Shown: positions 1-51,112 of the stretch, piece by piece
How the letters are laid out: the number at the start of each line of letters is the position of its first letter
How positions within the stretch are numbered: the stretch's first letter is position 1
Virus record (IMG/VR): IMGVR_UViG_3300027798_000058
Coordinates: 1-51,112 of that record
DNA from: a virus
Lineage: Duplodnaviria > Caudoviricetes
Strand: one strand, 5' to 3'
DNA length: 51,112 nucleotides
The notes under the pieces: generated by a model
The model's input: only the letters and a program-made list of their open reading frames with translations
Database searches by the model: none
What the model was told of the DNA's origin: nothing
Program-made: the position numbers and the translations under genes

Positions 1-1
1 T

Positions 2-1702
2 GACCAAGACATCAAGATTGGCCGCGTCCGTAACGCATTTAGCGTTTACATGGACCCAACCATCCAAGACCCATGCGGCTCAGACGCCGAATGGTGTTTT
101 ATCACCGAAGATATACTAAAGTCAGAATATGAGCGTTTGTTCCCTGACGCATCGCCAATTAGCACATTATATAGCCAAGGCGTTGGTGATCAGGGTATGT
201 CATCGTGGCTGCAAGAAGACACGATCCGCATTGCAGAGTATTTTTACAACGTCTACGAGCCTGAAACGCTGCATCTGTATCCAAATAACCAGACTGCAAA
301 AGCTAACTCGCCAGAAGACAAGCAGCTTAAAGAAATGTACGGCAAACCACTTCGCACACGCAAAGTAGACCGTAAAAAAGTCATGTGGATGAAGACCAAT
401 GGCTTTGACGTTCTTGACGAGCGCGAGTGGTCAGGCAAATACATCCCTGTCGTGCGCGTCATCGGCAACGAATTTGAAGTTGACGGTCAAATATACATTT
501 CTGGGCTTGTGCGTAATGCCAAAGATGCCCAGCGTATGTATAACTATTGGACCAGCCAAGAGGCAGAAATGCTTGCTTTGGCCCCTAAAGCACCATTTAT
601 CGGTTACGGCGGCCAATTTGAAGGCTACGAGAACCAATGGAAGACCGCCAACACGACCAACTGGCCGTATTTGGAAGTCAACCCAGACGTTACAGACGGC
701 TCTGGCGGCGTTCTACCGCTTCCGCAGCGCGCCCAGCCACCTTTACCCCAAACAGGTCTGATACAGGCTAAAATGGGCGCTGGCGAAGACATCAAGTCCA
801 CTACCGGCCAATACGACTCTTCTTTGGGTATGCAAGGCAACGAACGGTCTGCAAAAGCCATTACTGCACGCGAAAAGCAAGGCGATGTTGGCACGTATCA
901 CTATGTTGACAACCTTGCGCGGGCAATTCGCTATATCACACGCCAAATTGTCGATATGATCCCTAAAATCTACGACACGCAGCGCATTGCACGCATTATT
1001 GGTGCTGACGGCGAAGTCAGCATGGTCAAAATGGACCCGTCGCAGGAAGAACCTGTGCGCGAAGTGCGTGACGAAAACGGCGGTTTGATCGAAAAAATTT
1101 ACAACCCCGGCGTAGGCACATACGACGTTATGGTTACAACTGGCCCCGGCTACATGACCAAGCGTCAAGAGGCTTTGGATGCCATGAGCCAGATTTTGCA
1201 GTCCAACCCGCAACTTTGGTCCGTTGCTGGCGATTTGTTTGTCAAGAACATGGATTGGCCCGGCGCGCAGGAAATGGCGAATCGGTTTAGAAAGATACTT
1301 GACCCTAAAGTGTTGGCTACAGACGAAGAATCGCCTGAAATGGTTGCGGCGCAGCAGCAAATGGAAGTTATGGCTGAAGAACTGAACCGTATGGTCGATA
1401 TTATCGAAGGTGTTCAGGCTGACGTTGCAAAACGCGAAGTAGACATCAAGGAGTTTAAGGCACAGGTAGACGCTTACGATGCTGAGACAAAACGCATTAG
1501 CGCAATGCAAGCAGGGATGACAGAAGAGCAAATTCAGGATATTGTCATGGGTACGATTGCTGGCGCGCTAGATACCGGCGATTTAATTAGCGGATCACCA
1601 GAAATGCGTGAGCAACCTGAAATGATCGAAGAAATGCCTCAACAGCAACCAATGCAAGATATGGGCGGTATGCCTGAGATGCCCCCTGAAGGAATGATGT
1701 AA
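2..1702 (+). CDS. P22-like portal protein, phage B (5'-truncated)
   Basis: Frame is open from base 2 (DQDIKIGRVRNAFSVYMDP). Motifs KDAQRMYNYW..APKA, G.YDV.VTTGP.Y.TKR.EA and DWPGA match the second portal at 41338-43437. Confidence 0.9.
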   Translation, partial: DQDIKIGRVRNAFSVYMDPTIQDPCGSDAEWCFITEDILKSEYERLFPDASPISTLYSQGVGDQGMSSWLQEDTIRIAEYFYNVYEPETLHLYPNNQTAKANSPEDKQLKEMYGKPLRTRKVDRKKVMWMKTNGFDVLDEREWSGKYIPVVRVIGNEFEVDGQIYISGLVRNAKDAQRMYNYWTSQEAEMLALAPKAPFIGYGGQFEGYENQWKTANTTNWPYLEVNPDVTDGSGGVLPLPQRAQPPLPQTGLIQAKMGAGEDIKSTTGQYDSSLGMQGNERSAKAITAREKQGDVGTYHYVDNLARAIRYITRQIVDMIPKIYDTQRIARIIGADGEVSMVKMDPSQEEPVREVRDENGGLIEKIYNPGVGTYDVMVTTGPGYMTKRQEALDAMSQILQSNPQLWSVAGDLFVKNMDWPGAQEMANRFRKILDPKVLATDEESPEMVAAQQQMEVMAEELNRMVDIIEGVQADVAKREVDIKEFKAQVDAYDAETKRISAMQAGMTEEQIQDIVMGTIAGALDTGDLISGSPEMREQPEMIEEMPQQQPMQDMGGMPEMPPEGMM

Positions 1703-2460
1703 TGACTGTAAGCCTCAAACACACCTTTCAGTCAGCCAAAACTGACAGCACCGACGTAACAATTATCCAGCCGTCCAACTGGAACCAAGAGCATGAATTA
1801 ACGCTTGCCACTAACAAATTGCTGGGCCGCGCTACCGCTGGCACAGGCGCCGCTGAAGAACTTAGCGTCGGTACTGCATTGTCTGTATCAGGCGGCACAT
1901 TAGCGGTTACTACAGTGCTTGCCGCTAACGGCGGCACGGGCTTAACATCCTCTGGTGCTTCAGGAAATGTGCTAACCAGCAACGGCACGACATGGACTTC
2001 TGCGGTCCCTCCGGGGGGCGCTTGGACGCAGATTGCAACAACAACAATAAGCAGTCCCGTAGCCAACGTCACGTTCAGTAGCATCCCACAGACCTATAAC
2101 GACGTACTGCTTTTGTTTAATGGCGTAAGCCACACATCGGCGTTTAGTACGCAGTTGGCGGTATTATCTAGCAGCGACAACGGAACAACCATAAACAGCG
2201 CCTTTACCGTTTTTGTTGGGGAATCTACAGCGGCGTCTGCTTCTGTACATGGTGGTTTTTTGGTGACGGGGTATAAAAACCTTTATGGTGTTGTCTCTGC
2301 TGGGGCCGCTGATTTTGGCAGCGACTACGGTTTTGGTACTACAGCCAGTAGTGGAAGGTCTGTCCCGTTCCGTCTTGCAGCGGCACTTAACTGGCTTCGT
2401 GTCGAAAACTCAAACGCAGACAACCTCGACGCTGGAACAATCACGCTATTAGGGCGCTAA
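1702..2460 (+). CDS. tail fibre-like virion protein, phage B
   Basis: Gly/Thr-rich with an NGGTGLTS..GNVLTSNGTTW.S fibre motif. C-terminal domain resembles that of 9409-10257. TAATG overlap with the portal stop. Confidence 0.65.
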   Translation: MTVSLKHTFQSAKTDSTDVTIIQPSNWNQEHELTLATNKLLGRATAGTGAAEELSVGTALSVSGGTLAVTTVLAANGGTGLTSSGASGNVLTSNGTTWTSAVPPGGAWTQIATTTISSPVANVTFSSIPQTYNDVLLLFNGVSHTSAFSTQLAVLSSSDNGTTINSAFTVFVGESTAASASVHGGFLVTGYKNLYGVVSAGAADFGSDYGFGTTASSGRSVPFRLAAALNWLRVENSNADNLDAGTITLLGR

Positions 2461-2463
2461 CAT

Positions 2464-2733
2464 ATGACACACCAAATTATCATTGACTGTGAAACTGGCG
2501 AAGAAATCTTTGCAGAGTTTGCGCCTGCGCCGCCAACCAACGCCGATATTGCAGCACGTTGGACAGCTATCCGCATTCAGCGCAACAAACTTCTGGCCGA
2601 TTGCGATTGGACACAACTTGCCGACGCGCCTGTAGACGCCGCTGCATGGACGCCCTACCGCCAAGCATTACGCGATGTAACAGCTCAACCTGATCCGTTT
2701 GCTATTGTCTGGCCTGAAAGTCCATCACTATGA
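2464..2733 (+). CDS. tail fibre assembly chaperone-like protein
   Basis: RNKLLADCDWTQL.DAP...W..YRQALRD.T.Q......WP signature, directly after a fibre gene. Confidence 0.85.
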   Translation: MTHQIIIDCETGEEIFAEFAPAPPTNADIAARWTAIRIQRNKLLADCDWTQLADAPVDAAAWTPYRQALRDVTAQPDPFAIVWPESPSL

Positions 2734-3092
2734 AATGCGCTGACTTTGTAGGCACACTGTTTCTAGCGCGCGATGTGGCTCATTCAACGCACCTAAACAC
2801 ACGCAGCTTTGCCAAGCATTCCGCGTTAAACACTTTTTACGACGAAGTAATTGAATTAGCGGATAAATTTGCCGAAGCTTACCAAGGTAAATATGGACTA
2901 ATCGGCCCTATTTCGCTTATGTCAGCTAAGAAAACTAACAACATTGTTGCGTTTCTTGAGGGTCAAGTAGACGAACTTGAAGAAATGCGGTATAAAGTAG
3001 TAGATAAGGATTGCACTCCAATCCAAAACATTATCGACGAAATTTTTGGGTTGTACTATTCAACCTTGTATAAACTCAAATTTTTGGCTTAG
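2730..3092 (+). CDS. ferritin/Dps-like four-helix protein (DUF5856-like)
   Basis: H..HL.TRSFAKH.AL..FYD.....D..AE.YQG.YG pattern, ending TLYKLKFL. Confidence 0.7.
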   Translation: MKCADFVGTLFLARDVAHSTHLNTRSFAKHSALNTFYDEVIELADKFAEAYQGKYGLIGPISLMSAKKTNNIVAFLEGQVDELEEMRYKVVDKDCTPIQNIIDEIFGLYYSTLYKLKFLA

Positions 3093-3102
3093 GGACGCTT
3101 AA

Positions 3103-3507
3103 ATGGCTAACGCATTATATCAAAAGTGGAAGGAGCAGTTGCTCCAGTTCACGACGAACAACAACCTATCGGCAGGCACCGTTAAGGTGGCGTTGATTGA
3201 CACGGGCGTGTATACTTACAACGCGGCGGATCAGTTTTATTCGGCTGCGTCCGCTGCCGCTGTAGGCACGCCCCAGACGATTGGCTCCAAGACCTTCACC
3301 AATGGGGTGTTCGACGGCGCAGATGTCACCTTCACGGCGGTAACTGGCAGTTCGGTTGAGGCGCTGATCATATACGTTGATACAGGTGTGTCCGCTACAT
3401 CTCCGCTGGTGGCGTACATCGATACAAGCGTAACCGGCCTACCTGTAACACCAAATGGTGGTAACATTGATATTACGTGGAATGCCTCTGGTATCTTTGC
3501 GCTTTAA
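3103..3507 (+). CDS. putative virion structural protein
   Basis: Clean ORF in the structural operon; beta-rich, FDGADVTF..V and WNASGIFAL motifs. Confidence 0.6.
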   Translation: MANALYQKWKEQLLQFTTNNNLSAGTVKVALIDTGVYTYNAADQFYSAASAAAVGTPQTIGSKTFTNGVFDGADVTFTAVTGSSVEALIIYVDTGVSATSPLVAYIDTSVTGLPVTPNGGNIDITWNASGIFAL

Positions 3508-3516
3508 GAGGTTAAT

Positions 3517-3705
3517 ATGGCAAATATCGACTTTTTCTTTGAGACAAAATACGGCAAATACTCTGACGCAATTATCTTTCCAGATGATGAGCCTATGACA
3601 GAAGAGCAGATTGCCACTGAGAAGCAGCGCCGTCTTGATAACTGGATTGCGCTCATTGAAGCGCCGATAACGCCAGAAGAGCCAGCGCCAGAACCAGAGG
3701 CGTAA
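3517..3705 (+). CDS. small acidic hypothetical protein (copy 1)
   Basis: GAGG RBS; identical to 47973-48158 from TKYGKY onward, with a different N-terminus. Confidence 0.75.
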   Translation: MANIDFFFETKYGKYSDAIIFPDDEPMTEEQIATEKQRRLDNWIALIEAPITPEEPAPEPEA

Positions 3706-4865
3706 GCCGTGGCGGATAGATATTGGGTAGGCGGCACAGGAACGTGGAACACTACGTCCACAACAGTTTGGTCTGCTACATCGGGCGGAGCATCTGGCGC
3801 TTCTGTGCCTACCGCTGCCGATAGCGTTTTCTTTGACCAAGCGGGAACATTCACTATTACCCTGACGGGCGCTTTACTGTGCCTTGATATTACGGTTTCT
3901 GCCGGGACATATACGTTTACCAGCACTGGTACGATAGCTATCAGTGGCTCTATGTCGTTGCTGGCGGGGACTGTGTGGGACGCCACAGGCAACCTTACGT
4001 TTAACGCTACAACCACAGGTAAGACAGTCACAACAAATGGCGTGATTATGTCAGGGAATATAACATTCAACGGCGTTGGCGGTTCATGGACGCTCGGTAG
4101 CGCACTAACAACGACAGCATCACGCTCACTCACGCTAACCAGAGGAACGCTTAACCTAAGCACATTCACGCTGACAATAGGTGCGTTCAGTTCTAGCAAC
4201 GCTAACACTCGCACTATTGCTTTTGGCACTGGAAACATTACGCTCTTGTCTAACGGTTCGCTTTGGACAACATCTACAACTGCGGGGCTATCAACCACAG
4301 GCACTCAAGTAGTCAATGTGTCGTACACTGGCGCAAGCGCAGTAACGATAACGTCTGGTTCGCTAAACGAAGCTAACAGCATCAGCTTTAATTACACGGC
4401 TGGCACGTACTCGCTGACGCTCTCATCAGGGACACAGCGCAACCTTAACTTCACAGGCTTTGCAGGAACAGTCAGTAACGCCGCGCAGTTCATTTACGGC
4501 AACCTCACACTGGCGGCAGCGGCTACCTACACGGGTGGCCTATCCTCTTGGACTTTTGCGGCTACATCCACTGGCAAGACAATCACTACTAATGGCAAGA
4601 CAATGGACTTTCCCATTACGTTTGACGGCGTTGGAGGTTCATGGATACTGCAAGATGCGCTGACAATGGGGTCAACGCGAAGGCTATCACAGACTAACGG
4701 GACGCTTGACCTTAACGGTAAGACGCTGACTGTTGGCTCAGATTACAGAACCGCTACTGGAACCAAAAATCTGACGTTTAATGGCGGTACTTTGGTCTGC
4801 CCCGCGGCTTCGGCTATAGCATTCAACAACCTGCAACCCACTAATTTTACGACAACCGCTGGAAC
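3544..4865 (+). repeat. 1,322-bp direct repeat, copy 1
   Basis: Matches 47997-49318, starting ACAAAATACGGC and ending ACCGCTGGAAC. Translations are identical throughout and I saw no nucleotide differences. Confidence 0.95.
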
Positions 4866-5316
4866 TGGCACCGGCACAATATCAATGGCATCAGGATCGT
4901 CTACAGCCAGAACATTCGTCGGCGGCGGTTCCACGTTCAACTGCACTTTAAATTTGAGTGGTAATGGAACTGGCACTACGATTACGGGCAACAATACCTT
5001 TAACGACATTACCAACTCATTCATTACATCAGCAATTAGTGTAAGTTTCGCTGATGGGTCTACTAACACATTTAATAACTTCAATCTAAAGGGTTTCTCT
5101 GGAAGCAATGTTGGAATTAATAGTGTAGCTACACACACGCTTTCAAAAGCATCAGGAACGGTGTCATCTAACTTTTTATCACTGACCAATTCCATCGCAA
5201 CAGGCGGCGCAGCTTGGTACGCAGGGGCCAACAGTACAGACGACGGCGGCAACACGGGTTGGATTTTTGCAGCAGCACCCGACACAAACACTGGTAACTT
5301 TTTCAGCATTTTGTAG
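3709..5316 (+). CDS. Gly/Thr-rich repetitive virion/tail-associated protein (535-aa allele)
   Basis: GTG start. Internal repeat TGKT.TTNG......ITF.GVGGSW.L..ALT. About the first 390 aa are identical to 48162-50150. Confidence 0.75.
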   Translation: MADRYWVGGTGTWNTTSTTVWSATSGGASGASVPTAADSVFFDQAGTFTITLTGALLCLDITVSAGTYTFTSTGTIAISGSMSLLAGTVWDATGNLTFNATTTGKTVTTNGVIMSGNITFNGVGGSWTLGSALTTTASRSLTLTRGTLNLSTFTLTIGAFSSSNANTRTIAFGTGNITLLSNGSLWTTSTTAGLSTTGTQVVNVSYTGASAVTITSGSLNEANSISFNYTAGTYSLTLSSGTQRNLNFTGFAGTVSNAAQFIYGNLTLAAAATYTGGLSSWTFAATSTGKTITTNGKTMDFPITFDGVGGSWILQDALTMGSTRRLSQTNGTLDLNGKTLTVGSDYRTATGTKNLTFNGGTLVCPAASAIAFNNLQPTNFTTTAGTGTGTISMASGSSTARTFVGGGSTFNCTLNLSGNGTGTTITGNNTFNDITNSFITSAISVSFADGSTNTFNNFNLKGFSGSNVGINSVATHTLSKASGTVSSNFLSLTNSIATGGAAWYAGANSTDDGGNTGWIFAAAPDTNTGNFFSIL

Positions 5317-5328
5317 TAAGGGCAGACC

Positions 5329-5430
5329 ATGAGCGTCCATTCAGTCTTAAATCATTTGGGCGATAACGTGAAGTATAGTGTGGCCAACTCTACCAGGGGC
5401 TTAAAATTTGACGATAAGGATAAAAGATGA
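5329..5430 (+). other. 33-aa ORF, possible gene remnant at a recombination junction
   Basis: MSVHSVLNHLGDNVKYSVANSTRGLKFDDKDKR*, preceded by AAGGG; ATGA overlap with the next gene. Confidence 0.3.
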
Positions 5431-6203
5431 CTCTTGTTTCTGAAATCATTACTGACGCTTTTAGGCAGAGCAACCTTTTAGCCATTGGCTCTAGTCCCAC
5501 CACTAACCAACAAACTGAAGCCTTGCGTTACGTCAACCGTATCGTAGTCTCAGTCTTAGGCAACGAGGCAGGGGAAAACCTAGAAGCATTTGCTTTAGGC
5601 GGCAACAACATTGAAGCTCCCTCGGGCTATCCTTGGTATGGCGAAGCACCTTTTGGTGATTGGTATTTGCCAATGAACAAACGGGTAATGCTAAACCTGA
5701 CACAATCAGCAACGATTCCCCTGCACCCAATGCCTTCAGACGGTGCGCGGTTTGGTGTAGTAGATACGTCTACTAACCTAGCCACTAACACAGTAACAGT
5801 TATTGGTAACGGACGTACAATTGAAGGCGTCTCAAGTATAGTGCTTGACACAGACGGTCTAAAACGACAATGGTTCTACAGGCAGGACCTTGGCAACTGG
5901 ATGCGGATTACAGACCTAATCCTTACGGATGAGTTTCCGTTTCCGTTAGAGTTCGACCAGATGTTTATCACCTTGTTGGCCATGTCAATAAACCCGGCAT
6001 ATGGCGCATCAATTGATGAGCAGCTTAGCATGTTGTATACACGAGCCCGCTCTCAGTTTCGTGCACGATACCACAACGCAATCCAAACTAACTCAGAACA
6101 AGGGTTACTTCGTCTCTCTGGTATCTTTGGCAATTCGCGCTTCTACGAACACAACTATTTGTCTGACCCTGAAACAATATTTGATAGAGGTTATCCGTGG
6201 TAA
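5427..6203 (+). CDS. head-to-tail adaptor (P22 gp4-like)
   Basis: AAGGA RBS; N-terminal II.DAFR..N.....P..Q..EAL..N and C-terminal LA....P.YG patterns; lies just before the tail hub gene. Confidence 0.65.
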   Translation: MTLVSEIITDAFRQSNLLAIGSSPTTNQQTEALRYVNRIVVSVLGNEAGENLEAFALGGNNIEAPSGYPWYGEAPFGDWYLPMNKRVMLNLTQSATIPLHPMPSDGARFGVVDTSTNLATNTVTVIGNGRTIEGVSSIVLDTDGLKRQWFYRQDLGNWMRITDLILTDEFPFPLEFDQMFITLLAMSINPAYGASIDEQLSMLYTRARSQFRARYHNAIQTNSEQGLLRLSGIFGNSRFYEHNYLSDPETIFDRGYPW

Positions 6204-7465: not shown

Positions 7466-7482
7466 TTTAAGGTGCTTATATA

Positions 7483-8568: not shown

Positions 8569-8577
8569 GGAAATACT

Positions 8578-9405: not shown

Positions 9406-9408
9406 AAT

Positions 9409-10257: not shown

Positions 10258-10261
10258 CCGA

Positions 10262-39380: not shown

Positions 39381-39409
39381 TTGACATTTGCCTGAAAATA
39401 TGGTATAAT
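39381..39409 (+). promoter_or_regulatory. sigma70 consensus promoter for the packaging/virion operon
   Basis: TTGACA-TTTGCCTGAAAATATGG-TATAAT, 26 bp upstream of terS. Confidence 0.88.
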
Positions 39410-39435
39410 ACTGTATAAGCTGGGAAAGGATAGCC

Positions 39436-41332: not shown

Positions 41333-41337
41333 TAACT

Positions 41338-43437: not shown

Positions 43438-43442
43438 GTTTT

Positions 43443-43519
43443 CGATGCCTCGGGCCCAAACGCACAAACGGTCCGGGGATTACATCGCAATAAAGTTTGT
43501 GCAAACGGTTAAAGGACCG
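43443..43519 (+). promoter_or_regulatory. structured (pseudoknot-like) scaffold mRNA leader
   Basis: Stem 43448-56/43470-78; its loop GCACAAAC is complementary to 43495-502; a small hairpin covers AAAGGA. Confidence 0.5.
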
Positions 43520-43532
43520 ATAAACCTTATTT

Positions 43533-44537: not shown

Positions 44538-44572
44538 GGGCGTTATCTCATAATAAAGGATAACTACCTACA

Positions 44573-45859
44573 ATGCCTACTGTAACTGTAGATCAAGCAA
44601 AACTAGTCCTTAACTCGTTTGCCGCAATCTTCCAAAACAACCTTATGTCGAAGGACCTCGTCACATGGCGCAAGTTCGACGGCGAAATGAATGACCGCAA
44701 TGGCTTGACTGTTGTTGAGCAGGTCACTCCTGACTACACTACCACGTTCACTAGTGCGGCTGTTGCCGACCTTTCTTCGGGTACTCAAGATTCCATCTTT
44801 GGTTCTGAGCAGTACAAGTTGCAACAGGTCATCGGCAGTTCGATGGGCTGGTCGGACTTCGTTAAGATTCGTGACATCGGCGCAGCTCGTGAAAGTGAAG
44901 CCCTTAAAAAGGCTGCTCTCCGTCTTGCAACGGACATCGACTCGTACATCATGGGCTTCGTAGCTAAAGCTTCGAACAACTGGGTCGGAAACGCCAACGG
45001 TACGGCTAACGTCGCAACGTTCGCTGACATCGCAACAGCTGTTACCCGTCTGAAGAAAGAAGGCTGCGAGGACGATATCCGCGCTGTTCTTTCCTATGAT
45101 GACTGGCAGGCACTTGGCTCTAACGTCGTAACGAACAACGCATCGCTTACCGATATCGGCGGTGGCACGTATCGTCAGGGCTTTAACGGCACTATTGCTG
45201 GTATTCAAACTGCATTCACTCAACAGCTCCAGCCTCTCACGACTGGTACTCGTTCGACTGCTGCTGCTTTGACCGCTGGTACTGCCGACTCGGCTACGAC
45301 CTACGCATCAGTTGCTATCTCGGGTGCGCCGGGCCAGTATCTGACTCAGTTGGTTAACCTTGGCTCGCTTGGCGCTAACGCAACCATCGCGGACGGCGAA
45401 GTATTCACCATTGCTGGTGTTTATGCTTACGACAACCGCGCTAAAAAGGCTCTGGAGCATCTGCAACAGTTCCGTGTTGTCGGCGCCTTCACAGCTTCGG
45501 CTGGTGGTGCTGTCGCTGCTCGTGTGTTCCCTGCGATTATTACGTCGGGCCCGCATCGTACAGTATCGGCTGCTGCTGGTAACACTGCTGTCGTTACGTT
45601 TGTTGGTCAACCAAGCACTGCAACACTGCCGCGCTTCTTGGCTAATAAGAGTGCAGTCATCTGCAACACCGCTGACCTTATCATGCCAGCAACTGGTACT
45701 GCAAGCCGCAAGGCCTTGACAGCTGTCCCGTTGTCTGTCCGCATGTGGCAGGACTCGGTCTTTGCAACTGGTGAGCACCGTATCCGCTTTGATGTGGCTA
45801 TGGAATGCAACGTCGCGGCCGATGGTCGCCGTCGTTTGGTACGTCTCAACGGTTCGTAA
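44573..45859 (+). CDS. major capsid protein (P22 coat-like)
   Basis: Position after the scaffold; GEVFTIAGV....K.....LQQF.V insertion and RFDV C-terminal motif; strong codon bias. Confidence 0.9.
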   Translation: MPTVTVDQAKLVLNSFAAIFQNNLMSKDLVTWRKFDGEMNDRNGLTVVEQVTPDYTTTFTSAAVADLSSGTQDSIFGSEQYKLQQVIGSSMGWSDFVKIRDIGAARESEALKKAALRLATDIDSYIMGFVAKASNNWVGNANGTANVATFADIATAVTRLKKEGCEDDIRAVLSYDDWQALGSNVVTNNASLTDIGGGTYRQGFNGTIAGIQTAFTQQLQPLTTGTRSTAAALTAGTADSATTYASVAISGAPGQYLTQLVNLGSLGANATIADGEVFTIAGVYAYDNRAKKALEHLQQFRVVGAFTASAGGAVAARVFPAIITSGPHRTVSAAAGNTAVVTFVGQPSTATLPRFLANKSAVICNTADLIMPATGTASRKALTAVPLSVRMWQDSVFATGEHRIRFDVAMECNVAADGRRRLVRLNGS

Positions 45860-45869
45860 GAACTAAAGG

Positions 45870-45909
45870 AACTGGCCCCTCTGCCGAAAGGTACGGGCCA
45901 GTTTTTCTT
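45870..45909 (+). terminator. intrinsic terminator after the capsid gene
   Basis: AACTGGCCC...GGGCCAGTT followed by TTTCTT. Confidence 0.8.
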
Positions 45910-45935
45910 ATATAATAACTAGAGGTCTATAACAC

Positions 45936-46205
45936 ATGGATATTCAAGAACGCTATTCACCATACCCTGTTGCAGCTAACGCGACTGTTCAAGTGTCGGC
46001 CAACGCTGTTGGCGGTTTTCTTTGCACTACTGCGGGCACGTATACTCTTACTCGTAACGCTTCTGGAGGTAATCCAGCCCTGACTCTTCTTACTGCACAA
46101 CCTGTTTCTGCAGGAGTTTACTATCCCTTGCCCTTTTATCTTGGCACTCAAGGCGGCACATTTGTAGCAGCTGGCGGGGCCTCTGGCTTGCTCGGAGTAG
46201 CATAG
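45936..46205 (+). CDS. small virion-associated protein
   Basis: GAGG RBS; beta-rich 89-aa ORF. Confidence 0.65.
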   Translation: MDIQERYSPYPVAANATVQVSANAVGGFLCTTAGTYTLTRNASGGNPALTLLTAQPVSAGVYYPLPFYLGTQGGTFVAAGGASGLLGVA

Positions 46206-46206
46206 T

Positions 46207-46341
46207 ATGGCGTTAGCCTCTAAGTTTTTTAGCTGGTGGCTTCTTTTAGAAGGTGGCGGCGGCGGAGGCGGATGGATATTAGCTACTGGTAGCTGGGACG
46301 ATGCTGCTTCTTGGGATGACCTTAGTACTTGGATTGATTAA
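46207..46341 (+). CDS. 44-aa Trp/Gly-rich protein (not in ORF track)
   Basis: MALASKFFSWWLLLEGGGGGGGWILATGSWDDAASWDDLSTWID*; TAATG overlap with the next gene. Confidence 0.6.
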   Translation: MALASKFFSWWLLLEGGGGGGGWILATGSWDDAASWDDLSTWID

Positions 46342-47972
46342 TGGTACAACAAACTATAAATAATGGCGAGACTGGGTTAGTTGTTAGAGGCAAAATCAAC
46401 GACAACTTTACTGAAGTTTACAACTTAACAGCTAATCCGTATCCACGGGTTACTGACTACGCGTCTCTTCCTGCTGCCTCTACGCAAGCGGGCAAAATCT
46501 ATATTGTAGAAACAAGCACGGGCATTTGGCCTTTACGTAAATCTGCTGGTATGTGGATAAGCAACGGCTCTGTCTGGGCATGGCTTGGCAACGAGTCTTT
46601 GTTAGCAGAACAGATTACCTTTACTGGTAGTGGAACTATTGCAGCAACAAATCTACAGGCGGCTATTCAAGAGCTAGACTCTGAGACGCAGGGCTCGCTT
46701 GCTAACAGGCAGCCTTTGGCAGCAGTACTTACTAACACAACTGCATCGTTCACAACTGCACTAGAGACAAAGCTTAACGGCATTGCTACTGGCGCTACAG
46801 CGAACAACACTGACGCTTTTTTAATAGCTCGTGCTAATCACACGGGAACTCAGCTTGCTTCTACGGTTAGCGATTTTAGCGAAGCTGTTGATGATCGCGT
46901 AGCTGCTCTGCTTTTGCAGGGTTCTAACATAACTCTTACGTATGACGACACTGCCAACACCATAACGGTTAGTTCGGCAGCAGCTTCTTGGGGTTCTATC
47001 ACAGGTACGTTGTCTTCGCAAACAGATCTAAGCACAGCTTTAAACGGCAAGCAGCCTTTGGCTACTGTGCTAACTAATACTACTGCCAGCTTTACCACTG
47101 CACAAGAAACAAAACTTGCGGGTATCGCTACGGGTGCAACAGTTAACAGCACCGACGCTTTTCTTTTAGCTCGTGCCAACCATACTGGTACGCAAGACGT
47201 AGCAACAATAACAGGTCTCGCAACCGTAGCTACAACAGGCAGTGCGGCTGACCTTACAGGAAACCTTGCAGTTGCTCGATTGAACAGCGGCACTAGCGCA
47301 TCGGCCTCAACCTTCTGGCGCGGTGATGGTACTTGGGCAACCCCCTCGGGCGGCGCTGGCACTGTAACGTCCGTTGGTGGCACTGGCACGGTTAACGGCA
47401 TTACGCTTACTGGAACAGTCACATCAAGCGGTTCATTGACGTTGGGCGGCACTCTTTCTGGCGTTGACCTGACGACACAGGTCACAGGAACCTTGCCTGT
47501 TGGCAACGGCGGCACGGGAGCGACCACACTCACAGGTGTTGTTATCGGCAACGGCACATCTGCGTTTACGGTTAAAACCAACCCAACTGGCGCTTTTGTC
47601 GGCACAACAGACACGCAGACGCTGACTAACAAGCGCGTCACATCTCGCGTTAATGCACAGACAACAACTGCTTCACCTTTTGCGTGGAACTCTGACAGCT
47701 TTGACCAGCAATCGTTTTCGGCTTTAGCTAACGCCCTGACGATTAACGCTGATGCAGGAACGCCCACAGACGGGCAGCGCACTATCTTTCGCTTTAAGGA
47801 CAATGGTGTGGCCCGTGCGCTAACTTGGACAACAGGTGCGACGAAGGCGTTTCGGGCAGTTGGTGTTACGCTGCCGACAACAACCGTTATTAGCAAAACT
47901 ACTTATGTTGGCTGCATCTACAACGTAGCAGATAGCCGCTGGGACGCAGTGGCAGTTTCGCAGGAGGCGTAA
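46341..47972 (+). CDS. tail fibre-like protein, phage A
   Basis: Two ~48-aa repeats ending RANHTGTQ; TFWRGDGTW, GTVTSV, NGGTG and QTLTNK fibre motifs. Confidence 0.75.
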   Translation: MVQQTINNGETGLVVRGKINDNFTEVYNLTANPYPRVTDYASLPAASTQAGKIYIVETSTGIWPLRKSAGMWISNGSVWAWLGNESLLAEQITFTGSGTIAATNLQAAIQELDSETQGSLANRQPLAAVLTNTTASFTTALETKLNGIATGATANNTDAFLIARANHTGTQLASTVSDFSEAVDDRVAALLLQGSNITLTYDDTANTITVSSAAASWGSITGTLSSQTDLSTALNGKQPLATVLTNTTASFTTAQETKLAGIATGATVNSTDAFLLARANHTGTQDVATITGLATVATTGSAADLTGNLAVARLNSGTSASASTFWRGDGTWATPSGGAGTVTSVGGTGTVNGITLTGTVTSSGSLTLGGTLSGVDLTTQVTGTLPVGNGGTGATTLTGVVIGNGTSAFTVKTNPTGAFVGTTDTQTLTNKRVTSRVNAQTTTASPFAWNSDSFDQQSFSALANALTINADAGTPTDGQRTIFRFKDNGVARALTWTTGATKAFRAVGVTLPTTTVISKTTYVGCIYNVADSRWDAVAVSQEA

Positions 47973-48158
47973 ATGATAATCGAATTTGAATACACAACAA
48001 AATACGGCAAATACTCTGACGCAATTATCTTTCCAGATGATGAGCCTATGACAGAAGAGCAGATTGCCACTGAGAAGCAGCGCCGTCTTGATAACTGGAT
48101 TGCGCTCATTGAAGCGCCGATAACGCCAGAAGAGCCAGCGCCAGAACCAGAGGCGTAA
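47973..48158 (+). CDS. small acidic hypothetical protein (copy 2)
   Basis: GGAGG RBS; shares all but its N-terminus with 3517-3705. Confidence 0.75.
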   Translation: MIIEFEYTTKYGKYSDAIIFPDDEPMTEEQIATEKQRRLDNWIALIEAPITPEEPAPEPEA

Positions 48159-49318
48159 GCCGTGGCGGATAGATATTGGGTAGGCGGCACAGGAACGTGG
48201 AACACTACGTCCACAACAGTTTGGTCTGCTACATCGGGCGGAGCATCTGGCGCTTCTGTGCCTACCGCTGCCGATAGCGTTTTCTTTGACCAAGCGGGAA
48301 CATTCACTATTACCCTGACGGGCGCTTTACTGTGCCTTGATATTACGGTTTCTGCCGGGACATATACGTTTACCAGCACTGGTACGATAGCTATCAGTGG
48401 CTCTATGTCGTTGCTGGCGGGGACTGTGTGGGACGCCACAGGCAACCTTACGTTTAACGCTACAACCACAGGTAAGACAGTCACAACAAATGGCGTGATT
48501 ATGTCAGGGAATATAACATTCAACGGCGTTGGCGGTTCATGGACGCTCGGTAGCGCACTAACAACGACAGCATCACGCTCACTCACGCTAACCAGAGGAA
48601 CGCTTAACCTAAGCACATTCACGCTGACAATAGGTGCGTTCAGTTCTAGCAACGCTAACACTCGCACTATTGCTTTTGGCACTGGAAACATTACGCTCTT
48701 GTCTAACGGTTCGCTTTGGACAACATCTACAACTGCGGGGCTATCAACCACAGGCACTCAAGTAGTCAATGTGTCGTACACTGGCGCAAGCGCAGTAACG
48801 ATAACGTCTGGTTCGCTAAACGAAGCTAACAGCATCAGCTTTAATTACACGGCTGGCACGTACTCGCTGACGCTCTCATCAGGGACACAGCGCAACCTTA
48901 ACTTCACAGGCTTTGCAGGAACAGTCAGTAACGCCGCGCAGTTCATTTACGGCAACCTCACACTGGCGGCAGCGGCTACCTACACGGGTGGCCTATCCTC
49001 TTGGACTTTTGCGGCTACATCCACTGGCAAGACAATCACTACTAATGGCAAGACAATGGACTTTCCCATTACGTTTGACGGCGTTGGAGGTTCATGGATA
49101 CTGCAAGATGCGCTGACAATGGGGTCAACGCGAAGGCTATCACAGACTAACGGGACGCTTGACCTTAACGGTAAGACGCTGACTGTTGGCTCAGATTACA
49201 GAACCGCTACTGGAACCAAAAATCTGACGTTTAATGGCGGTACTTTGGTCTGCCCCGCGGCTTCGGCTATAGCATTCAACAACCTGCAACCCACTAATTT
49301 TACGACAACCGCTGGAAC
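47997..49318 (+). repeat. 1,322-bp direct repeat, copy 2
   Basis: Matches 3544-4865; the flanks on both sides are homologous but diverged. Confidence 0.95.
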
Positions 49319-50150
49319 GGGCACTGGCACAATCTCTATGACAGCGGCGACAGCCAAAACCTTTGTCGGCGGCGGGTCTACGTTCAACTGCACTATCAAT
49401 CAGGGTGGCGCTGGTGCGCTGACGATCACGGGCGCTAACACGTTTAACAACATCACGAACACCGTGCAGCCAGCGTCGGTGCTTTTCACCGCCGGGACTA
49501 CTACGACATTTAACAACTTTAACCTGAGCGGCACGGCTGGGAACCTCATCACGATTGCCAGCGCCACGGCGGCTACGCACACGCTGTCAAAGGCAAGCGG
49601 CACTGTTTCTGTAGACTATCTCTCAATCACTAACTCCATCGCAACAGGCGGCGCGGCTTGGTACGCGGGCGCGAATAGTACAAACGTCAGCGGAAACACG
49701 GGCTGGATATTCACAGCACCTCCGGGCGGTTTGCAAACGCTTTTGCCAAGCCTGTACACTAATACCAACACTTTTTACTTAACAACAATCACACAGACAG
49801 GCCCCCCGCAGACGCTGACGCCTGATCGCTACGACAACACGAATGTCTTCTACGATGCCACGGTATCGTCAAGCAACACGCTTACGCCCGACCGCTACGA
49901 CAACACAAATGTCTTTTACGCAGCTACGATATCGGCAAGCAACGAGCTTATCCCCGACCGGTATGACAACACAAACATCTTCTATGCGGCTACGGTTATA
50001 CAGCCGGGCGGCACACAGACGTTAATACCCGCGCGATACGACAACGTAAACACACTGTTTTCACCAACTGTATCGGCGGTATTGCCTCCTGATGAAAATT
50101 TTGTTATGGATGTCAAGTTACGCTCATTTACTGAGCGGAGGAGATTTTAA
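48162..50150 (+). CDS. Gly/Thr-rich virion/tail-associated protein (662-aa allele, phage B C-terminus)
   Basis: Same N-terminus as 3709-5316, plus five TL.P.RYDNTN.FY..T-type repeats. Confidence 0.75.
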   Translation: MADRYWVGGTGTWNTTSTTVWSATSGGASGASVPTAADSVFFDQAGTFTITLTGALLCLDITVSAGTYTFTSTGTIAISGSMSLLAGTVWDATGNLTFNATTTGKTVTTNGVIMSGNITFNGVGGSWTLGSALTTTASRSLTLTRGTLNLSTFTLTIGAFSSSNANTRTIAFGTGNITLLSNGSLWTTSTTAGLSTTGTQVVNVSYTGASAVTITSGSLNEANSISFNYTAGTYSLTLSSGTQRNLNFTGFAGTVSNAAQFIYGNLTLAAAATYTGGLSSWTFAATSTGKTITTNGKTMDFPITFDGVGGSWILQDALTMGSTRRLSQTNGTLDLNGKTLTVGSDYRTATGTKNLTFNGGTLVCPAASAIAFNNLQPTNFTTTAGTGTGTISMTAATAKTFVGGGSTFNCTINQGGAGALTITGANTFNNITNTVQPASVLFTAGTTTTFNNFNLSGTAGNLITIASATAATHTLSKASGTVSVDYLSITNSIATGGAAWYAGANSTNVSGNTGWIFTAPPGGLQTLLPSLYTNTNTFYLTTITQTGPPQTLTPDRYDNTNVFYDATVSSSNTLTPDRYDNTNVFYAATISASNELIPDRYDNTNIFYAATVIQPGGTQTLIPARYDNVNTLFSPTVSAVLPPDENFVMDVKLRSFTERRRF

Positions 50151-50458
50151 TGGCTATCAACTTAAAAGCAATTACTAGCTGTCTGGGCTACCAGCAAATT
50201 ACTTCGCTTAGTTCCGCGCAATATCTAACAGTGCCTTCAGTTGACCCCAACACAGGGTTAAATTTAATGCCCACGATTGCCATTATCACCGCTGAAACAA
50301 CTGGTGTTCGCTGGCGCGATGATGGTGTAGCCCCGACCGCGTCAATAGGTATGCCTTTGGCAGCGGGCGTTACTTTGCAGTACGACGGCGACTTGAGAAA
50401 AATTCGGTTCATTGAGCAGACCCCATCTGCCAAAATCAACATTACATATTACTCGTAA
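50150..50458 (+). CDS. hypothetical virion-operon protein, phage B
   Basis: GGAG RBS; VRWRDDG.APTAS.GMPL motif. Confidence 0.7.
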   Translation: MAINLKAITSCLGYQQITSLSSAQYLTVPSVDPNTGLNLMPTIAIITAETTGVRWRDDGVAPTASIGMPLAAGVTLQYDGDLRKIRFIEQTPSAKINITYYS

Positions 50459-50469
50459 GGATCGCAGGC

Positions 50470-50958
50470 ATGAACATCTCTGGCGACACCCCCGGCGTTA
50501 ACTACGTCGATTACTTTACCCAGCAGCTACCCAAAGATTTGGCCGCTATGGCTGCTTTGCGCGATGAACTGGCTGTACGCCAAGGCGCGCTGTCAGCCGC
50601 AGAGTCGGCAATTGCTGACCGCGATGCAGCAGCAGCCGAATTGGCCGCGGCCAAAGAAGAAGCCGCAGCAATAAAAGCTGACGCAACTAAAATAAACGCA
50701 AAATCCAAAGAGCGTGAATCCGCTGTAGCAGCTAGCGAAACTGCTGTTAACGCGCGCGAAGCTGCGTCGGCAAAAACAATTGCTAGCGCCGAAGCTGAAT
50801 TGGCCGTGCGGTTAAACGCGTGCAACACTCTTGAAGCTGGGCAAACAAAGCTGGCTGCCGAATTGGCAGATCGCAGCGCCAAGATAGCCAGCGATAGCGC
50901 GGCTCTTGAAGCCCGCATTAAAGCATTTCAGGAAAAGGTTGCTAACCTTTCTGCCTGA
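50470..50958 (+). CDS. Ala-rich coiled-coil protein, phage B
   Basis: AAGGA upstream; heptad-like Ala/Glu/Lys sequence. Confidence 0.7.
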   Translation: MNISGDTPGVNYVDYFTQQLPKDLAAMAALRDELAVRQGALSAAESAIADRDAAAAELAAAKEEAAAIKADATKINAKSKERESAVAASETAVNAREAASAKTIASAEAELAVRLNACNTLEAGQTKLAAELADRSAKIASDSAALEARIKAFQEKVANLSA

Positions 50959-51007
50959 TAGACTACCGTACTGGTGCGGCACATCAGGAACTCCATAGGA
51001 GTTACAC

Positions 51008-51112
51008 ATGGACGAAATAGTCCCCAACGTAGCGGATGCCTCCGCGCCAGAACTCGAAGCCACGGCAGCAATTGAGCCTGTAGAAAATACGACGCCGGAA
51101 ACGCCTGCTGAA
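51008..51112 (+). CDS. probable scaffolding protein, phage B (3'-truncated)
   Basis: AGGAG RBS; acidic Pro-rich start MDEIVPNVADASAPELEATAAIEPVENTTPETPAE; structured leader. Confidence 0.6.
   Translation, partial: MDEIVPNVADASAPELEATAAIEPVENTTPETPAE

What the first reader, a model, noticed from the sequence alone, without database searches (positions are those of the whole stretch)
1..51112. A complete 44,453-bp phage nested inside a second phage's head operon through a shared 1,322-bp tail module
Seen: two divergent portals and two scaffold-like genes. Removing 3544-47996 rejoins phage B into a portal-to-scaffold operon and leaves a circular phage A with one full gene set. Both repeat ends fall inside ORFs, and diverged homology continues beyond them. 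No integrase is recognisable. Inference: most likely an assembler path through a segment shared by two co-occurring phages; a recombination co-integrate is the alternative. Either way, near-identity implies very recent exchange of a virion module between otherwise distant phages that share a host.
Basis: partly seen in the sequence, partly recalled or inferred. Interest (0 to 1): 0.7.

Follow-up and report, generated by a model that had tools for sequence, protein, structure and literature searches.

The report
Two lake phages joined by assembly
This contig is most likely an assembly join of two different freshwater phages that share an identical 1.3-kb spike-like gene segment, so the "phage inside a phage" is probably not a real molecule, while the shared segment is an ordinary but clean case of recent gene exchange.

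Summary
Positions 3544-4865 and 47997-49318 are an exact 1,322-bp direct repeat. The contig carries two P22-type portal genes only 32% identical in protein.

- **Phage A.** Cutting out one repeat-to-repeat unit leaves a 44,453-bp circle with one full lytic gene set and no integrase.
- **Phage B.** What remains is a 6,659-bp fragment running from the portal gene to the start of the scaffold gene.
- **Relatives.** In 48 of 80 A-type loci the capsid gene is followed within 74-4,361 bp by the gene at 5427. In 19 of 79 B-type loci the B portal is followed within 661-6,795 bp by the window's last 150 bases. Five contigs show the full B gene order with this fibre in the middle.
- **Reads.** In the probable source run, one 43,382-nt contig closes the A circle at depth 14.7. 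B-only pieces lie at 4.9-9.2 and the repeat at 24.0, about the sum. A second study holds both B junctions.

Verdict: an assembler path through a truly shared segment (about 0.85). A co-integrate cannot be excluded without molecules that span the repeat. The shared segment encodes a beta-helix, tailspike-like protein. This is familiar phage mosaicism.

The parts
1..3543 (+). B-left flank (X): unique part of phage B upstream of the repeat
   Evidence: 90% nt identity to IMG/VR contig L163 over 1-1941 and 86% over 2570-3098. No similarity to any of the 80 A-type loci except the distant portal match.
2..1702 (+). Phage B portal gene, cut by the contig's 5' end (566 aa present; relative L163 has 741 aa)
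   Evidence: PF16510 P22_portal E 6e-127 and phrog_156 E 4e-95, both starting at profile position about 129-145. 96% aa identity to L163. L163 ORF length.
1702..2460 (+). B 252-aa ORF, unknown function
   Evidence: No PHROG or Pfam hit. Homologues in 12 of 82 B-type loci.
2464..2733 (+). B 89-aa ORF, tail-fibre-assembly-like
   Evidence: phrog_4912 'tail fiber assembly' E 5.5e-18.
2730..3092 (+). B 120-aa Dps-like ('starvation-inducible regulator') gene, a marker of the B lineage
   Evidence: phrog_858 E 3e-26. Found in 75 of 82 B-type loci, 100% aa identity in L163. It follows the portal in DSL-LC05 and MW202483.
3103..3507 (+). B 134-aa ORF (phrog_644, unknown function)
   Evidence: One homologue at 82% aa identity, in B-type locus L192.
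3517..3705 (+). Small 62-aa ORF, copy with the B-type first 9 codons; the repeat starts 27 nt into it
   Evidence: Homologues sit just upstream of the fibre in 39 of 80 fibre-bearing IMG/VR loci.
3544..4865 (+). Repeat copy 1 (R)
   Evidence: Exact 1,322-bp match to 47997-49318.
3709..5316 (+). Fibre/spike gene, 535 aa. Codons 1-386 lie in R; the 3' part is A-type
   Evidence: AlphaFold model of aa 1-386 has pLDDT 96 and is all-beta. Beta-helix matches at Z 13-15.6.
4866..47996 (.). Unique part of phage A (Y), 43,131 bp. Together with one R copy it forms a 44,453-bp circle
   Evidence: A Logan contig of 43,382 nt in run X1 covers 4836-10000, then 37,996 further letters, then 3544-3764. Gene content.
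5427..6203 (+). A 258-aa ORF, first conserved A gene after the fibre cassette
   Evidence: Homologues in 48 of 80 A-type loci, always 74-4,361 bp downstream of the capsid gene and on the same strand.
6197..7465 (+). A head-closure / DNA-stabilisation protein, 422 aa
   Evidence: phrog_578 E 2.6e-28.
12444..17984 (+). A 1,846-aa ORF; its place after DNA-ejection-like genes suggests an internal virion or ejection protein
   Evidence: Only phrog_13543 (unknown function) E 4e-15; upstream ORF 10683-11357 hits DNA-ejection families. The role is inferred from position.
19589..29364 (-). A replication block: ribonucleotide reductase, DNA polymerase exonuclease and polymerase parts, Cas4-like exonuclease, endonuclease, primase-helicase
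   Evidence: phrog_367 E 9e-176, phrog_403 E 6e-74, phrog_17 E 3e-102, phrog_1990, phrog_945, phrog_239 E 8e-141.
39436..41332 (+). A terminase small and large subunits
   Evidence: phrog_51 E 2e-20; phrog_979 E 5e-36.
41320..43437 (+). Phage A portal gene, complete, 705 aa
   Evidence: PF16510 E 6e-151. 91% aa identity to four IMG/VR contigs. At most 36% to any deposited phage among the 12 rows listed, with all 117 matching records under 60%.
43533..45859 (+). A scaffold (334 aa) and major capsid protein (428 aa)
   Evidence: phrog_8865 E 2e-21; phrog_283 E 2e-25.
46341..47972 (+). A 543-aa ORF directly upstream of the small ORF
   Evidence: phrog_3030 E 5e-26 plus weak tail and decoration hits. 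Homologues in 25 of 80 fibre-bearing loci; in L012 it lies directly upstream of a small-ORF and fibre pair.
47973..48158 (+). Small 61-aa ORF, copy with the A-type first 8 codons
47997..49318 (+). Repeat copy 2 (R)
48162..50150 (+). Fibre/spike gene, 662 aa, with the B-type 3' part and a longer C-terminus
   Evidence: Fibres of B-type contigs match this version better than the 535-aa one, for example 62% against 54% in L004 and 69% against 55% in L035.
49812..49984 (+). 66-nt tandem repeat, 2.6 copies, inside the B-type C-terminal extension
50150..50958 (+). B 102-aa and 162-aa ORFs, unknown function, markers of the B lineage
   Evidence: No family hit. They follow the fibre in L004, L031, L010, L020, L003, L035 and L047.
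51008..51112 (+). First 35 codons of the phage B scaffold gene; the contig ends here
   Evidence: An ATG-started frame runs off the contig end. 50965-51112 is 97% identical to L163 9413-9560, where a 261-aa ORF starts at 9456 and precedes a 402-aa capsid-sized ORF.

Best explanation
The contig is a walk through an assembly graph, not one molecule. Two different freshwater podophages with P22-type head genes were present in the same sample.
- **Phage A** is a complete circular or circularly permuted genome of 44,453 bp. It is lytic-looking, with its own polymerase, primase-helicase and ribonucleotide reductase.
- **Phage B** belongs to an abundant, microdiverse lineage of about 34-40 kb whose fibre cassette sits between the portal and scaffold genes.

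The two share an identical 1,322-bp stretch covering most of a 62-aa ORF and the first 386 codons of a beta-helix fibre/spike gene. In a short-read graph this stretch is one node with two entries and two exits. The assembler went B-left, R, once round the A loop, R, B-right. The contig stops at both ends in conserved B genes, where many B-like strains tangle the graph.

The shared stretch itself is real. It reflects a recent homologous-recombination (gene-conversion-like) event inside a fibre gene that both phages already carried in older, 31%-diverged versions. The fibre family is native to the B lineage and absent from other A-lineage contigs, so A is the more likely recipient.

**Shown:** the repeat, the two gene sets, the conserved gene orders, the unequal and additive depths, the closure of the A circle, and the B junctions in a second study.

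**Inferred:** the assembler's behaviour, the direction of transfer, co-infection of one host, and the protein's role as a receptor-binding spike.
For: 1. **Repeat and boundaries.** The repeat is exact and 1,322 bp long, with sharp edges. There are 0 differences inside it against 69% identity in the next 404 aligned bases.

2. **Two head gene sets.**
- Two P22-type portals are 32% identical.
- A carries one full set: terminases, portal, scaffold, capsid, head closure, ejection, lysozyme and replication genes.
- B contributes a second portal and the start of a second scaffold gene.

3. **A gene order in relatives.**
- 48 of 80 A-type IMG/VR loci hold both the capsid gene and the homologue of ORF 5427-6203. 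The two genes lie on the same strand and 74-4,361 bp apart.
- The A circle gives 4,020 bp. In the contig as laid out, ORF 5427-6203 lies 40,432 bp upstream of the capsid gene's end instead of following it.

4. **B gene order in relatives.**
- 19 of 79 B-type loci hold both the portal and a match to window positions from about 50,900 to the end. The match starts 661-6,795 bp after the end of the portal match, which in the window reaches positions 1365-1988.
- The join X-R-Z gives 4,570 bp from position 1941.
- L004, L031, L010, L020 and L018 show portal, Dps-like gene, this fibre family, then the 102-aa ORF. The small ORF is present in L004, L031 and L010; the 162-aa ORF is missing only in L018.
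- Deposited relatives DSL-LC05 and MW202483 also carry a spike cassette between portal and scaffold.

5. **Probable source run X1, Logan contigs.**
- One 43,382-nt contig at depth 14.7 covers 4836-10000, then 37,996 further letters (exactly the length of 10001-47996), then 3544-3764. That is the A circle.
- The R piece 3823-4865 has depth 24.0 with 0 differences and ends exactly at 4865.
- B-only pieces have depths 8.37, 9.2 and 4.88. 14.7 + 9.2 = 23.9.

6. **Run X2, a different study.**
- A contig at 3370-3616 with 0 differences bridges X into R.
- A contig at 4645-4947 runs on into letters identical to window 49395-49424, which bridges R into Z.

7. **Genome sizes.** Longer A-type contigs are 42-50 kb. 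Longer B-type contigs are 34-40.5 kb, and the two circular B-type records are 37.6 and 38.8 kb. A co-integrate would therefore be about 80 kb.

8. **Integration machinery.** No integrase was found in the 50 ORFs scanned.

9. **Prior record of this artefact class.** Passages of the CheckV paper (PMC8116208) describe assembly artefacts in IMG/VR contigs and note that chimeras between viruses are not yet screened for.
Against: - Nothing available spans the 1,322-bp repeat. All four junctions would also exist in a true co-integrate.
- The depths fit any mixture of free A, free B and co-integrate in which A exceeds B, so a minor co-integrate fraction is not excluded.
- Among the pieces listed for run X1, none covers 3415-3543. 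The X-to-R junction is therefore not confirmed in that run by Logan's contigs, although 1,274 pieces were not shown.
- The A contig in X1 passes the left repeat edge unbroken and stops at 3764, and the R contig starts at 3823. I cannot explain this 58-nt gap. It may mean a further variant.
- Depth is one mean figure per contig, and X1 may be the window's own source, so it is not independent evidence for the sequence itself.
- I do not know which assembler made the contig.
Confidence: 0.85

Rival explanations
1. The contig is a real co-integrate. Phage A DNA recombined with phage B DNA by a single homologous crossover within the shared 1,322 bp during co-infection. The result is B-left, R, whole A, R, B-right as an actual replicative or concatemeric molecule that was abundant enough to be assembled.
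For: - The structure is exactly what a single crossover between a circle and a second genome produces. The direct repeats flank the insert, and every ORF at the four junctions stays intact.
- Identical sequence over 1.3 kb is ample substrate for recombination.
- Both phages occur in the same run.
Against: - Depths in run X1 are unequal: A 14.7 against 4.9-9.2 for the B-only pieces. At most a minority of A copies could therefore be in such a molecule.
- A is closed as a circle by one contig.
- B junctions occur in another study.
- The product would be about 80 kb. Related genomes are 34-50 kb, so it could not fit one headful of either capsid. That last step rests on general knowledge of headful packaging.
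- A short-read assembler cannot resolve a true 1.3-kb duplication any better than a false one, so the contig itself is no evidence for this reading.
Confidence: 0.08
2. The 100% identity of the repeat is a product of consensus. A and B carry similar but not identical copies, a few per cent apart, that the assembler merged into one node. The exchange would then be older than it looks.
For: - In a graph walk both copies are printed from one node, so identity between them is automatic.
- Assemblers pop small bubbles.
- In X1 there is a break inside R between 3764 and 3823 that may be a variant site.
Against: - An independent k=31 assembly (Logan) gives 3823-4865 as one unbroken 1,043-nt contig. 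It has 0 differences from the window and depth 24.0, the sum of A and B. That depth requires nearly all 31-mers to be shared by both populations.
- R pieces in runs X2, X3 and X4 show 0-1 differences: 3370-3616, 4320-4541, 3962-4142, 4563-4737, 3823-3965, 4100-4250, 4231-4379 and 4393-4543.
- None of the 40 variant positions printed for the laid stretch falls within 3544-4865, though 108 more were not shown.
Confidence: 0.1
3. The contig is part of one genuine phage genome larger than 51 kb that carries two head-gene sets and a duplicated fibre segment.
For: Only the contig itself supports this.
Against: - None of the 80 A-type loci carries any B-specific gene, and none of the 82 B-type loci carries the A 258-aa or 89-aa genes.
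- The depths of the two parts differ.
- No relative separates the capsid gene from the 258-aa gene, or the B portal from the B scaffold, by more than 6.8 kb.
Confidence: 0.01

Closest known systems
Inter-genome chimeric contigs in short-read viral metagenomes (loop traversal at a shared repeat)
   Same: - The layout is X-R-Y-R-Z with an exact repeat longer than a read.
- The components differ in depth, and the repeat lies at their sum.
- The contig ends sit in conserved, multi-strain regions.
- From passages I read, the CheckV paper (PMC8116208) reports IMG/VR contigs that repeat one genome as probable assembly artefacts, and names chimeras of related viruses as a class not yet detected.
- From passages I read, a simulation study (PMC4247695) reports that most Illumina virome contigs draw reads from more than one genome.
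   Different: - Here the two partners are not close relatives (portals 32% identical). They meet only in one 1.3-kb module.
- One partner is included whole. The product therefore looks like an insertion rather than a strain mix or a concatemer of one genome.
Phage mosaicism by exchange of tail-fibre or tailspike modules between unrelated phages (recalled from the general phage literature; no paper read here)
   Same: - A receptor-binding-type beta-helix gene segment is identical in two otherwise distant phages.
- The boundaries are sharp and fall inside genes.
- Older, diverged homology lies beside it.
- The module family is spread over at least 581 IMG/VR stretches on several backbones.
   Different: - The module sits in different places in the two genomes: after the capsid gene in A, between portal and scaffold in B.
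- The identical part includes the very N-terminus, where a virion-specific anchor domain would usually be expected. The beta-helix starts at residue 1-3 of the model.
Phage DSL-LC05 (OR003940; proposed family 'Luchaoviridae', PMC10611076, passages read) and Caudoviricetes sp. MW202483
   Same: - These are the closest deposited relatives of phage B.
- Portal identity is 72% and 69% aa, and the Dps-like gene 66% and 71% aa.
- The order is the same: terminase, portal, Dps-like gene, spike cassette, scaffold, capsid.
- Both are circular records of 37.6 and 38.8 kb from fresh water.
   Different: - Their spike cassettes are unrelated to R at E <= 1e-3.
- IMG/VR contigs such as L163 are much closer to B (96% aa identity in the portal).
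P22-like podoviruses (portal family PF16510)
   Same: - Both portals pass the Pfam gathering score by a wide margin.
- A also has scaffold, coat and head-closure genes in P22-like order.
   Different: - Neither phage has an integrase in the ORFs scanned.
- A carries T7-style replication genes and a ribonucleotide reductase.
- A's portal is at most 36% identical to any deposited phage among the 12 rows listed. A's capsid protein found no tblastn match among 50,697 phage records.

Membership tests
Assembly chimera through an inter-genome repeat | Layout X-R-Y-R-Z with the two R copies identical | tested here: met
   1,322 bp with 0 mismatches.
Assembly chimera through an inter-genome repeat | The components have different depths and the repeat lies at about their sum | tested here: met
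   Run X1: Y 14.7; X pieces 8.37, 9.2 and 4.88; R 24.0. These are contig-mean depths, not per-base depths.
Assembly chimera through an inter-genome repeat | Each component exists on its own with the parental junctions | tested here: met
   The A circle is closed by one 43,382-nt contig in X1. The X-to-R and R-to-Z junction contigs occur in X2. Relatives show the gene orders of both parents.
Assembly chimera through an inter-genome repeat | No single molecule links X to Y or Y to Z across R | not testable with these tools
   Only k=31 contigs were on hand. None can span 1,322 bp of shared sequence.
Co-integrate by homologous recombination | Equal copy number of X, Y and Z, with R at twice that number | tested here: not met
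   Y/X is 1.6-3.0 in run X1. A minor co-integrate fraction remains possible.
Integrated element (prophage-like insertion by site-specific recombination) | An integrase or recombinase gene, and short attachment-site repeats at the ends | tested here: not met
   0 of 50 ORFs hit an integrase family at E <= 1e-3. The flanking repeat is 1,322 bp of coding sequence rather than a short att core. No tRNA gene was found.
P22-like portal protein (PF16510) | Score above Pfam's gathering cut-off (26.1 bits) over most of the profile | tested here: met
   B portal: 425 bits, profile positions 129-593, cut by the contig end. A portal: 504 bits, profile positions 2-589.
Phage tailspike / tail fibre (right-handed parallel beta-helix receptor-binding protein) | Parallel beta-helix fold | tested here: met
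   The model of aa 1-386 has pLDDT 96.1 and pTM 0.92. VIA-align gives Z 15.6 to the Vag8 passenger domain and Z 13.1-13.4 to K5A lyase, CBA120 TSP3, the APK16 depolymerase, the Pam1 tailspike and phi92 gp150. The tool warns that repeat folds score high by arrangement alone.
Phage tailspike / tail fibre (right-handed parallel beta-helix receptor-binding protein) | Sequence membership in a named tail-fibre or tailspike family | tested here: inconclusive
   Neither the 535-aa nor the 662-aa protein hit PHROGs at E <= 1e-3 or Pfam at E <= 0.01. tblastn of the 662-aa protein found nothing among deposited phages. Foldseek against PDB gave nothing at E <= 0.001. BFVD hits are uncharacterised proteins of uncultured phages, best E 1.7e-22.
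Phage tailspike / tail fibre (right-handed parallel beta-helix receptor-binding protein) | A separate N-terminal domain that docks on the tail, and presence in the virion | not testable with these tools
   The helix starts at residue 1-3 of the model and no distinct N-terminal domain is seen. Virion location needs proteomics or microscopy.

The most novel reading that the evidence does not exclude
The contig could be a real molecule: a hybrid of two unrelated lytic phages, roughly 80 kb in its complete form. It would have formed by homologous crossover in the shared fibre segment inside a co-infected cell, and been caught in a lake metagenome as a replicative intermediate. That would be a direct snapshot of the step by which phage mosaics arise. 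The evidence allows it only as a minority species beside free A and free B.
Probability: 0.07. Interest if true: 0.6.

Novelty: new member of a known kind. Interest (0 to 1): 0.28.

Why it matters
- **Database quality.** The record should not be treated as one 51-kb viral genome. It holds a complete 44.5-kb genome of an uncultured lineage with no close deposited relative, plus a 6.7-kb island of a second phage. Screens for repeated genomes would miss this kind of join, which looks like an insertion.
- **Biology.** The case is a clean, datable example of module exchange. A beta-helix spike segment is identical over 1.3 kb in two phages whose portals are 32% identical, and it sits at different positions in their genomes. 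The pair could be used to ask how one spike N-terminus serves two different virions, and whether the two phages share a host.
- **Level of surprise.** Neither point would surprise a specialist.

Tried and rejected
- **Exact search for the repeat elsewhere.** A 50-base stretch from the middle of the repeat found 0 matches in IMG/VR and 0 in JGI metagenome contigs. No independent assembly of R with its flanks could be examined. The window's own record may be hidden from these scans. I did not use the second metagenome scan that was allowed.
- **Deposited phages.**
  - blastn of 1-8000 and of 43200-51112 found only the B portal at 69-72% plus short scraps.
  - tblastn of the A capsid protein and of the 662-aa fibre found nothing.
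- **Run X2.** No contig was laid on 5011-10000, the A-only part, while pieces of X and R were.
- **Run X1.** Among the listed pieces nothing lies on 3415-3543, and 1,274 pieces were not shown. I draw no conclusion from this.
- **Fold search.** Foldseek against PDB gave no match at E <= 0.001.
- **Scaffold claim.** The 162-aa ORF compared with the A scaffold gave no similarity.
- **Earlier notes of this scan.** None exist for this genome.
- **Site-specific integration.** Rejected: no integrase, no tRNA, and the repeat is coding sequence.
- **Terminal redundancy of one genome.** Rejected: outside R the two contig ends are unrelated in register.

Full report
**What is in the sequence**

The window is the whole record, one contig of 51,112 bp. 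Positions 3544-4865 and 47997-49318 are identical over 1,322 bp, and the offset is 44,453. Everywhere else the two contig ends, compared in register, are at background identity of 14-36% per 100 nt. This is therefore not the terminal overlap of one circular genome.

The left edge of the repeat lies 27 and 24 nt into a small ORF of 62 and 61 codons (3517-3705 and 47973-48158). The first 8-9 codons differ between the two copies.

The right edge lies at codon 386 of a larger ORF. That ORF is 535 codons in the first copy (3709-5316) and 662 in the second (48162-50150). Past this edge the two genes stay alignable for about 420 nt at 69% identity (278 of 404 aligned bases, 21 gap columns). Homology is then lost near 5284 and 49728. 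The longer version carries a 66-nt tandem repeat of 2.6 copies.

**Two phages**

ORF 2-1702 and ORF 41320-43437 are both P22-type portal proteins (PF16510, E 6e-127 and 6e-151). They share only 32% identity.

The stretch from one repeat copy to the next holds a single complete gene set:
- terminase small and large subunits, portal, scaffold, major capsid protein, head-closure proteins and DNA-ejection-like proteins;
- a 1,846-aa ORF, a lysozyme, a ribonucleotide reductase and a DNA polymerase in two parts;
- a Cas4-like exonuclease, an endonuclease and a primase-helicase.

None of the 50 ORFs scanned against PHROGs matched an integrase, and there is no tRNA gene. I call this 44,453-bp unit phage A.

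The remainder is 1-3543 plus one repeat copy plus 49319-51112, in all 6,659 bp. I call it phage B. It holds, in order:
- a portal cut by the contig end and a 252-aa ORF;
- a tail-fibre-assembly-like ORF, a Dps-like ORF and a 134-aa ORF;
- the small ORF and the fibre gene;
- ORFs of 102 and 162 aa, and the first 35 codons of a further gene that runs off the contig.

**Do the two halves of B belong together, and does A close on itself?**

Relatives answer both questions.

For A, 80 IMG/VR loci were retrieved with the A portal.
- 48 of them hold both a capsid-gene homologue and a homologue of ORF 5427-6203. The two genes are always on the same strand, with the second 74-4,361 bp after the first.
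- The A circle gives 4,020 bp. In the contig as printed, ORF 5427-6203 lies 40,432 bp upstream of the capsid gene's end.

For B, 79 loci were retrieved with the B portal; the best have 96% aa and 90% nt identity.
- 19 of them also match the window from about position 50,900 to its end, at up to 97.5% identity. The match starts 661-6,795 bp after the end of the portal match, which in the window reaches positions 1365-1988.
- The join X-R-Z gives 4,570 bp from position 1941. The contig as printed gives about 49 kb.
- In L163 that terminal match is the start of a 261-aa ORF followed by a 402-aa ORF, the scaffold and capsid positions. The window therefore ends 105 nt into the B scaffold gene.
- Contigs L004, L031, L010, L020 and L018 show the B order with this fibre family in the middle: portal, Dps-like gene, fibre, 102-aa ORF. 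The small ORF is present in L004, L031 and L010. The 162-aa ORF follows in all but L018.
- The two closest deposited genomes are DSL-LC05 (37.6 kb, circular) and MW202483 (38.8 kb, circular). Both also carry a spike cassette between portal and scaffold. From passages of PMC10611076, DSL-LC05 is a lake metagenome phage proposed as the family 'Luchaoviridae'.

No A-type locus carries any B-specific gene, and no B-type locus carries the A 258-aa or 89-aa genes.

**Read-level evidence**

One run, X1, a freshwater metagenome, holds 90% of the sampled words of window 1-10000. It may be the window's own source. Only Logan's k=31 contigs are kept for it.
- 37,996 is exactly the length of 10001-47996. 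Also 43,382 = 43,131 (the A-only part) + 30 + 221. This contig is therefore phage A running out of the repeat's right end and back into its left end.
- The repeat piece 3823-4865 is a separate contig. It has 0 differences, depth 24.0, and ends exactly at 4865, where the A and B paths part.
- B-only pieces with 0 differences have depth 8.37 (1654-2759), 9.2 (2735-2927) and 4.88 (3011-3414).
- 14.7 + 9.2 = 23.9. Two populations of unequal abundance share the repeat. A pure co-integrate would require equal depths of the unique parts.
- The B portal region lies at summed depths of 147-376, with many variant positions. Many B-like strains are present, which explains why the contig breaks off in the portal and scaffold genes.

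A run from a different study, X2, holds two further contigs.
- One at 3370-3616 has 0 differences and bridges B-left into the repeat.
- One at 4645-4947 runs on into 30 letters identical to window 49395-49424, so it bridges the repeat into B-right.

Runs X3 and X4 hold pieces of the repeat and of A-only sequence with 0-3 differences.

**What cannot be settled**

Nothing on hand spans 1,322 bp of shared sequence. The four junctions exist under either reading, and the depths fit any mixture in which A exceeds B. A minority of true co-integrate molecules is therefore not excluded.

Three further considerations bear on this.
- Such a molecule would be about 80 kb, against 34-50 kb for related genomes. 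By general knowledge of headful packaging it could not be a virion genome.
- Among the listed pieces for X1, none covers 3415-3543.
- The A contig stops at 3764 while the repeat contig starts at 3823. I cannot explain that 58-nt gap. A further variant is the likeliest cause.

**The shared module**

I built an alignment of the first 386 residues with 37 translated IMG/VR homologues (42-65% identical). It gave an AlphaFold model with pLDDT 96.1 and pTM 0.92, all beta.
- VIA-align finds right-handed parallel beta-helices: Z 15.6 to the Vag8 autotransporter passenger, and Z 13.1-13.4 to five phage tailspikes or depolymerases.
- Foldseek against PDB finds nothing at E <= 0.001.
- Against predicted viral structures, Foldseek finds uncharacterised proteins of uncultured phages, best E 1.7e-22.
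- PHROGs and Pfam give no family.

The fold and the gene neighbourhood make a receptor-binding spike the best guess. Its place on the virion is not shown. The helix begins at the first residues, with no separate docking domain.

The family is widespread.
- At least 581 IMG/VR stretches encode a relative.
- Of the best 80 loci, 39 also carry the small ORF just upstream.
- 13 carry a B-type portal, 18 the B 102-aa ORF, and none the A 258-aa or 89-aa genes.
- None of the 80 A-type loci has a fibre homologue, including the 48 that span the interval where A carries it.
- Fibres on B-type backbones match the 662-aa version better than the 535-aa version.

The family therefore looks native to the B lineage and acquired by A. 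The step from 0 differences in 1,322 bp to 31% divergence next door marks a recent recombination inside a gene both phages already had. The additive depth of an unbroken k=31 contig over 3823-4865 argues that the identity is real and not a merged consensus.

**Comparison with what is known**

The joined contig belongs to the known class of metagenome assembly artefacts.
- From passages of the CheckV paper (PMC8116208): IMG/VR holds contigs that repeat a genome, described as probable assembly artefacts, and chimeras between viruses are named as not yet screened.
- From passages of a simulation study (PMC4247695): most Illumina virome contigs draw reads from more than one genome.

I saw no supplements. 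Exchange of fibre or spike modules between unrelated phages is textbook mosaicism; I recall this and read no paper on it here.

**Verdict**

The finding is ordinary in kind. The useful outcomes are:
- a warning on this record;
- a complete genome of an uncultured phage lineage, whose portal is at most 36% identical to any deposited phage among the rows listed and whose capsid protein has no tblastn match;
- a clean pair for studying spike-module exchange.

Noticed in passing
window 29658-35227 (- strand): Phage A carries a run of five amide-bond and glutamine-handling enzyme genes: an ATP-grasp 'S6 glutaminyl transferase'-like gene (phrog_2599, E 4e-69), an amidoligase (phrog_7469), a COOH-NH2 ligase (phrog_3815, E 5e-76), a GFAT-like amidotransferase (phrog_4736/18128) and a glutamine amidotransferase (phrog_7218). 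An unknown 237-aa ORF sits among them. The target of this chemistry is unknown.
   Followed up: no
window 12444-17984 (+): An ORF of 1,846 aa has only one weak match, to a PHROG of unknown function (phrog_13543, residues 712-829). It lies after ejection-protein-like genes and before a lysozyme.
   Followed up: no
window 2730-3092 (+) and B-type loci: A 120-aa Dps-like gene (phrog_858) follows the portal in 75 of 82 B-type loci. It is 100% identical in protein to that of L163, although the surrounding DNA is only 86-90% identical. Its conservation is unusually strong for a small gene in a variable island.
   Followed up: partly
window 3765-3822 (inside the repeat): In run X1 the phage A contig enters the repeat and stops at 3764, and the shared-repeat contig starts at 3823. 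The 58-nt gap suggests a variant or a third haplotype that joins there. The pieces that would show it were not listed.
   Followed up: no
window 1-1670 and 2673-3006: Summed contig depth over the B portal and Dps-like genes is 68-376 in X1 and 17-645 in X4. Over the B-specific stretch 2005-2672 it is 8.4 in X1. Many related B-like strains co-occur, and the B lineage is far more abundant as a group than this genotype.
   Followed up: partly
window 3709-4866 / 48162-49319: The beta-helix starts at residue 1-3, with no separate N-terminal domain. Yet the N-terminal 386 residues are identical in two phages whose portals are 32% identical. Attachment to the virion may depend on the diverged C-terminal part, on the co-transferred 62-aa protein or on the upstream gene.
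   Followed up: no
L012 9311-11614; L054 301-5864: Homologues of the C-terminal part of the A 543-aa ORF occur on other backbones. In L012 one lies directly upstream of a small-ORF and fibre pair, and the locus shows no A or B marker within the fetched flanks. In L054 the homologue lies about 1.9 kb upstream of the fibre matches, with no small-ORF match listed. This suggests a three-gene cassette that moves as a unit. Homologues occur in 25 of 80 fibre-bearing loci.
   Followed up: partly
L031 6463-6765 and 8226-8528: One B-type contig carries two copies of the 102-aa ORF homologue in opposite orientation (76% and 77% aa identity). This may be an inversion or another assembly artefact in the same variable island.
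   Followed up: no
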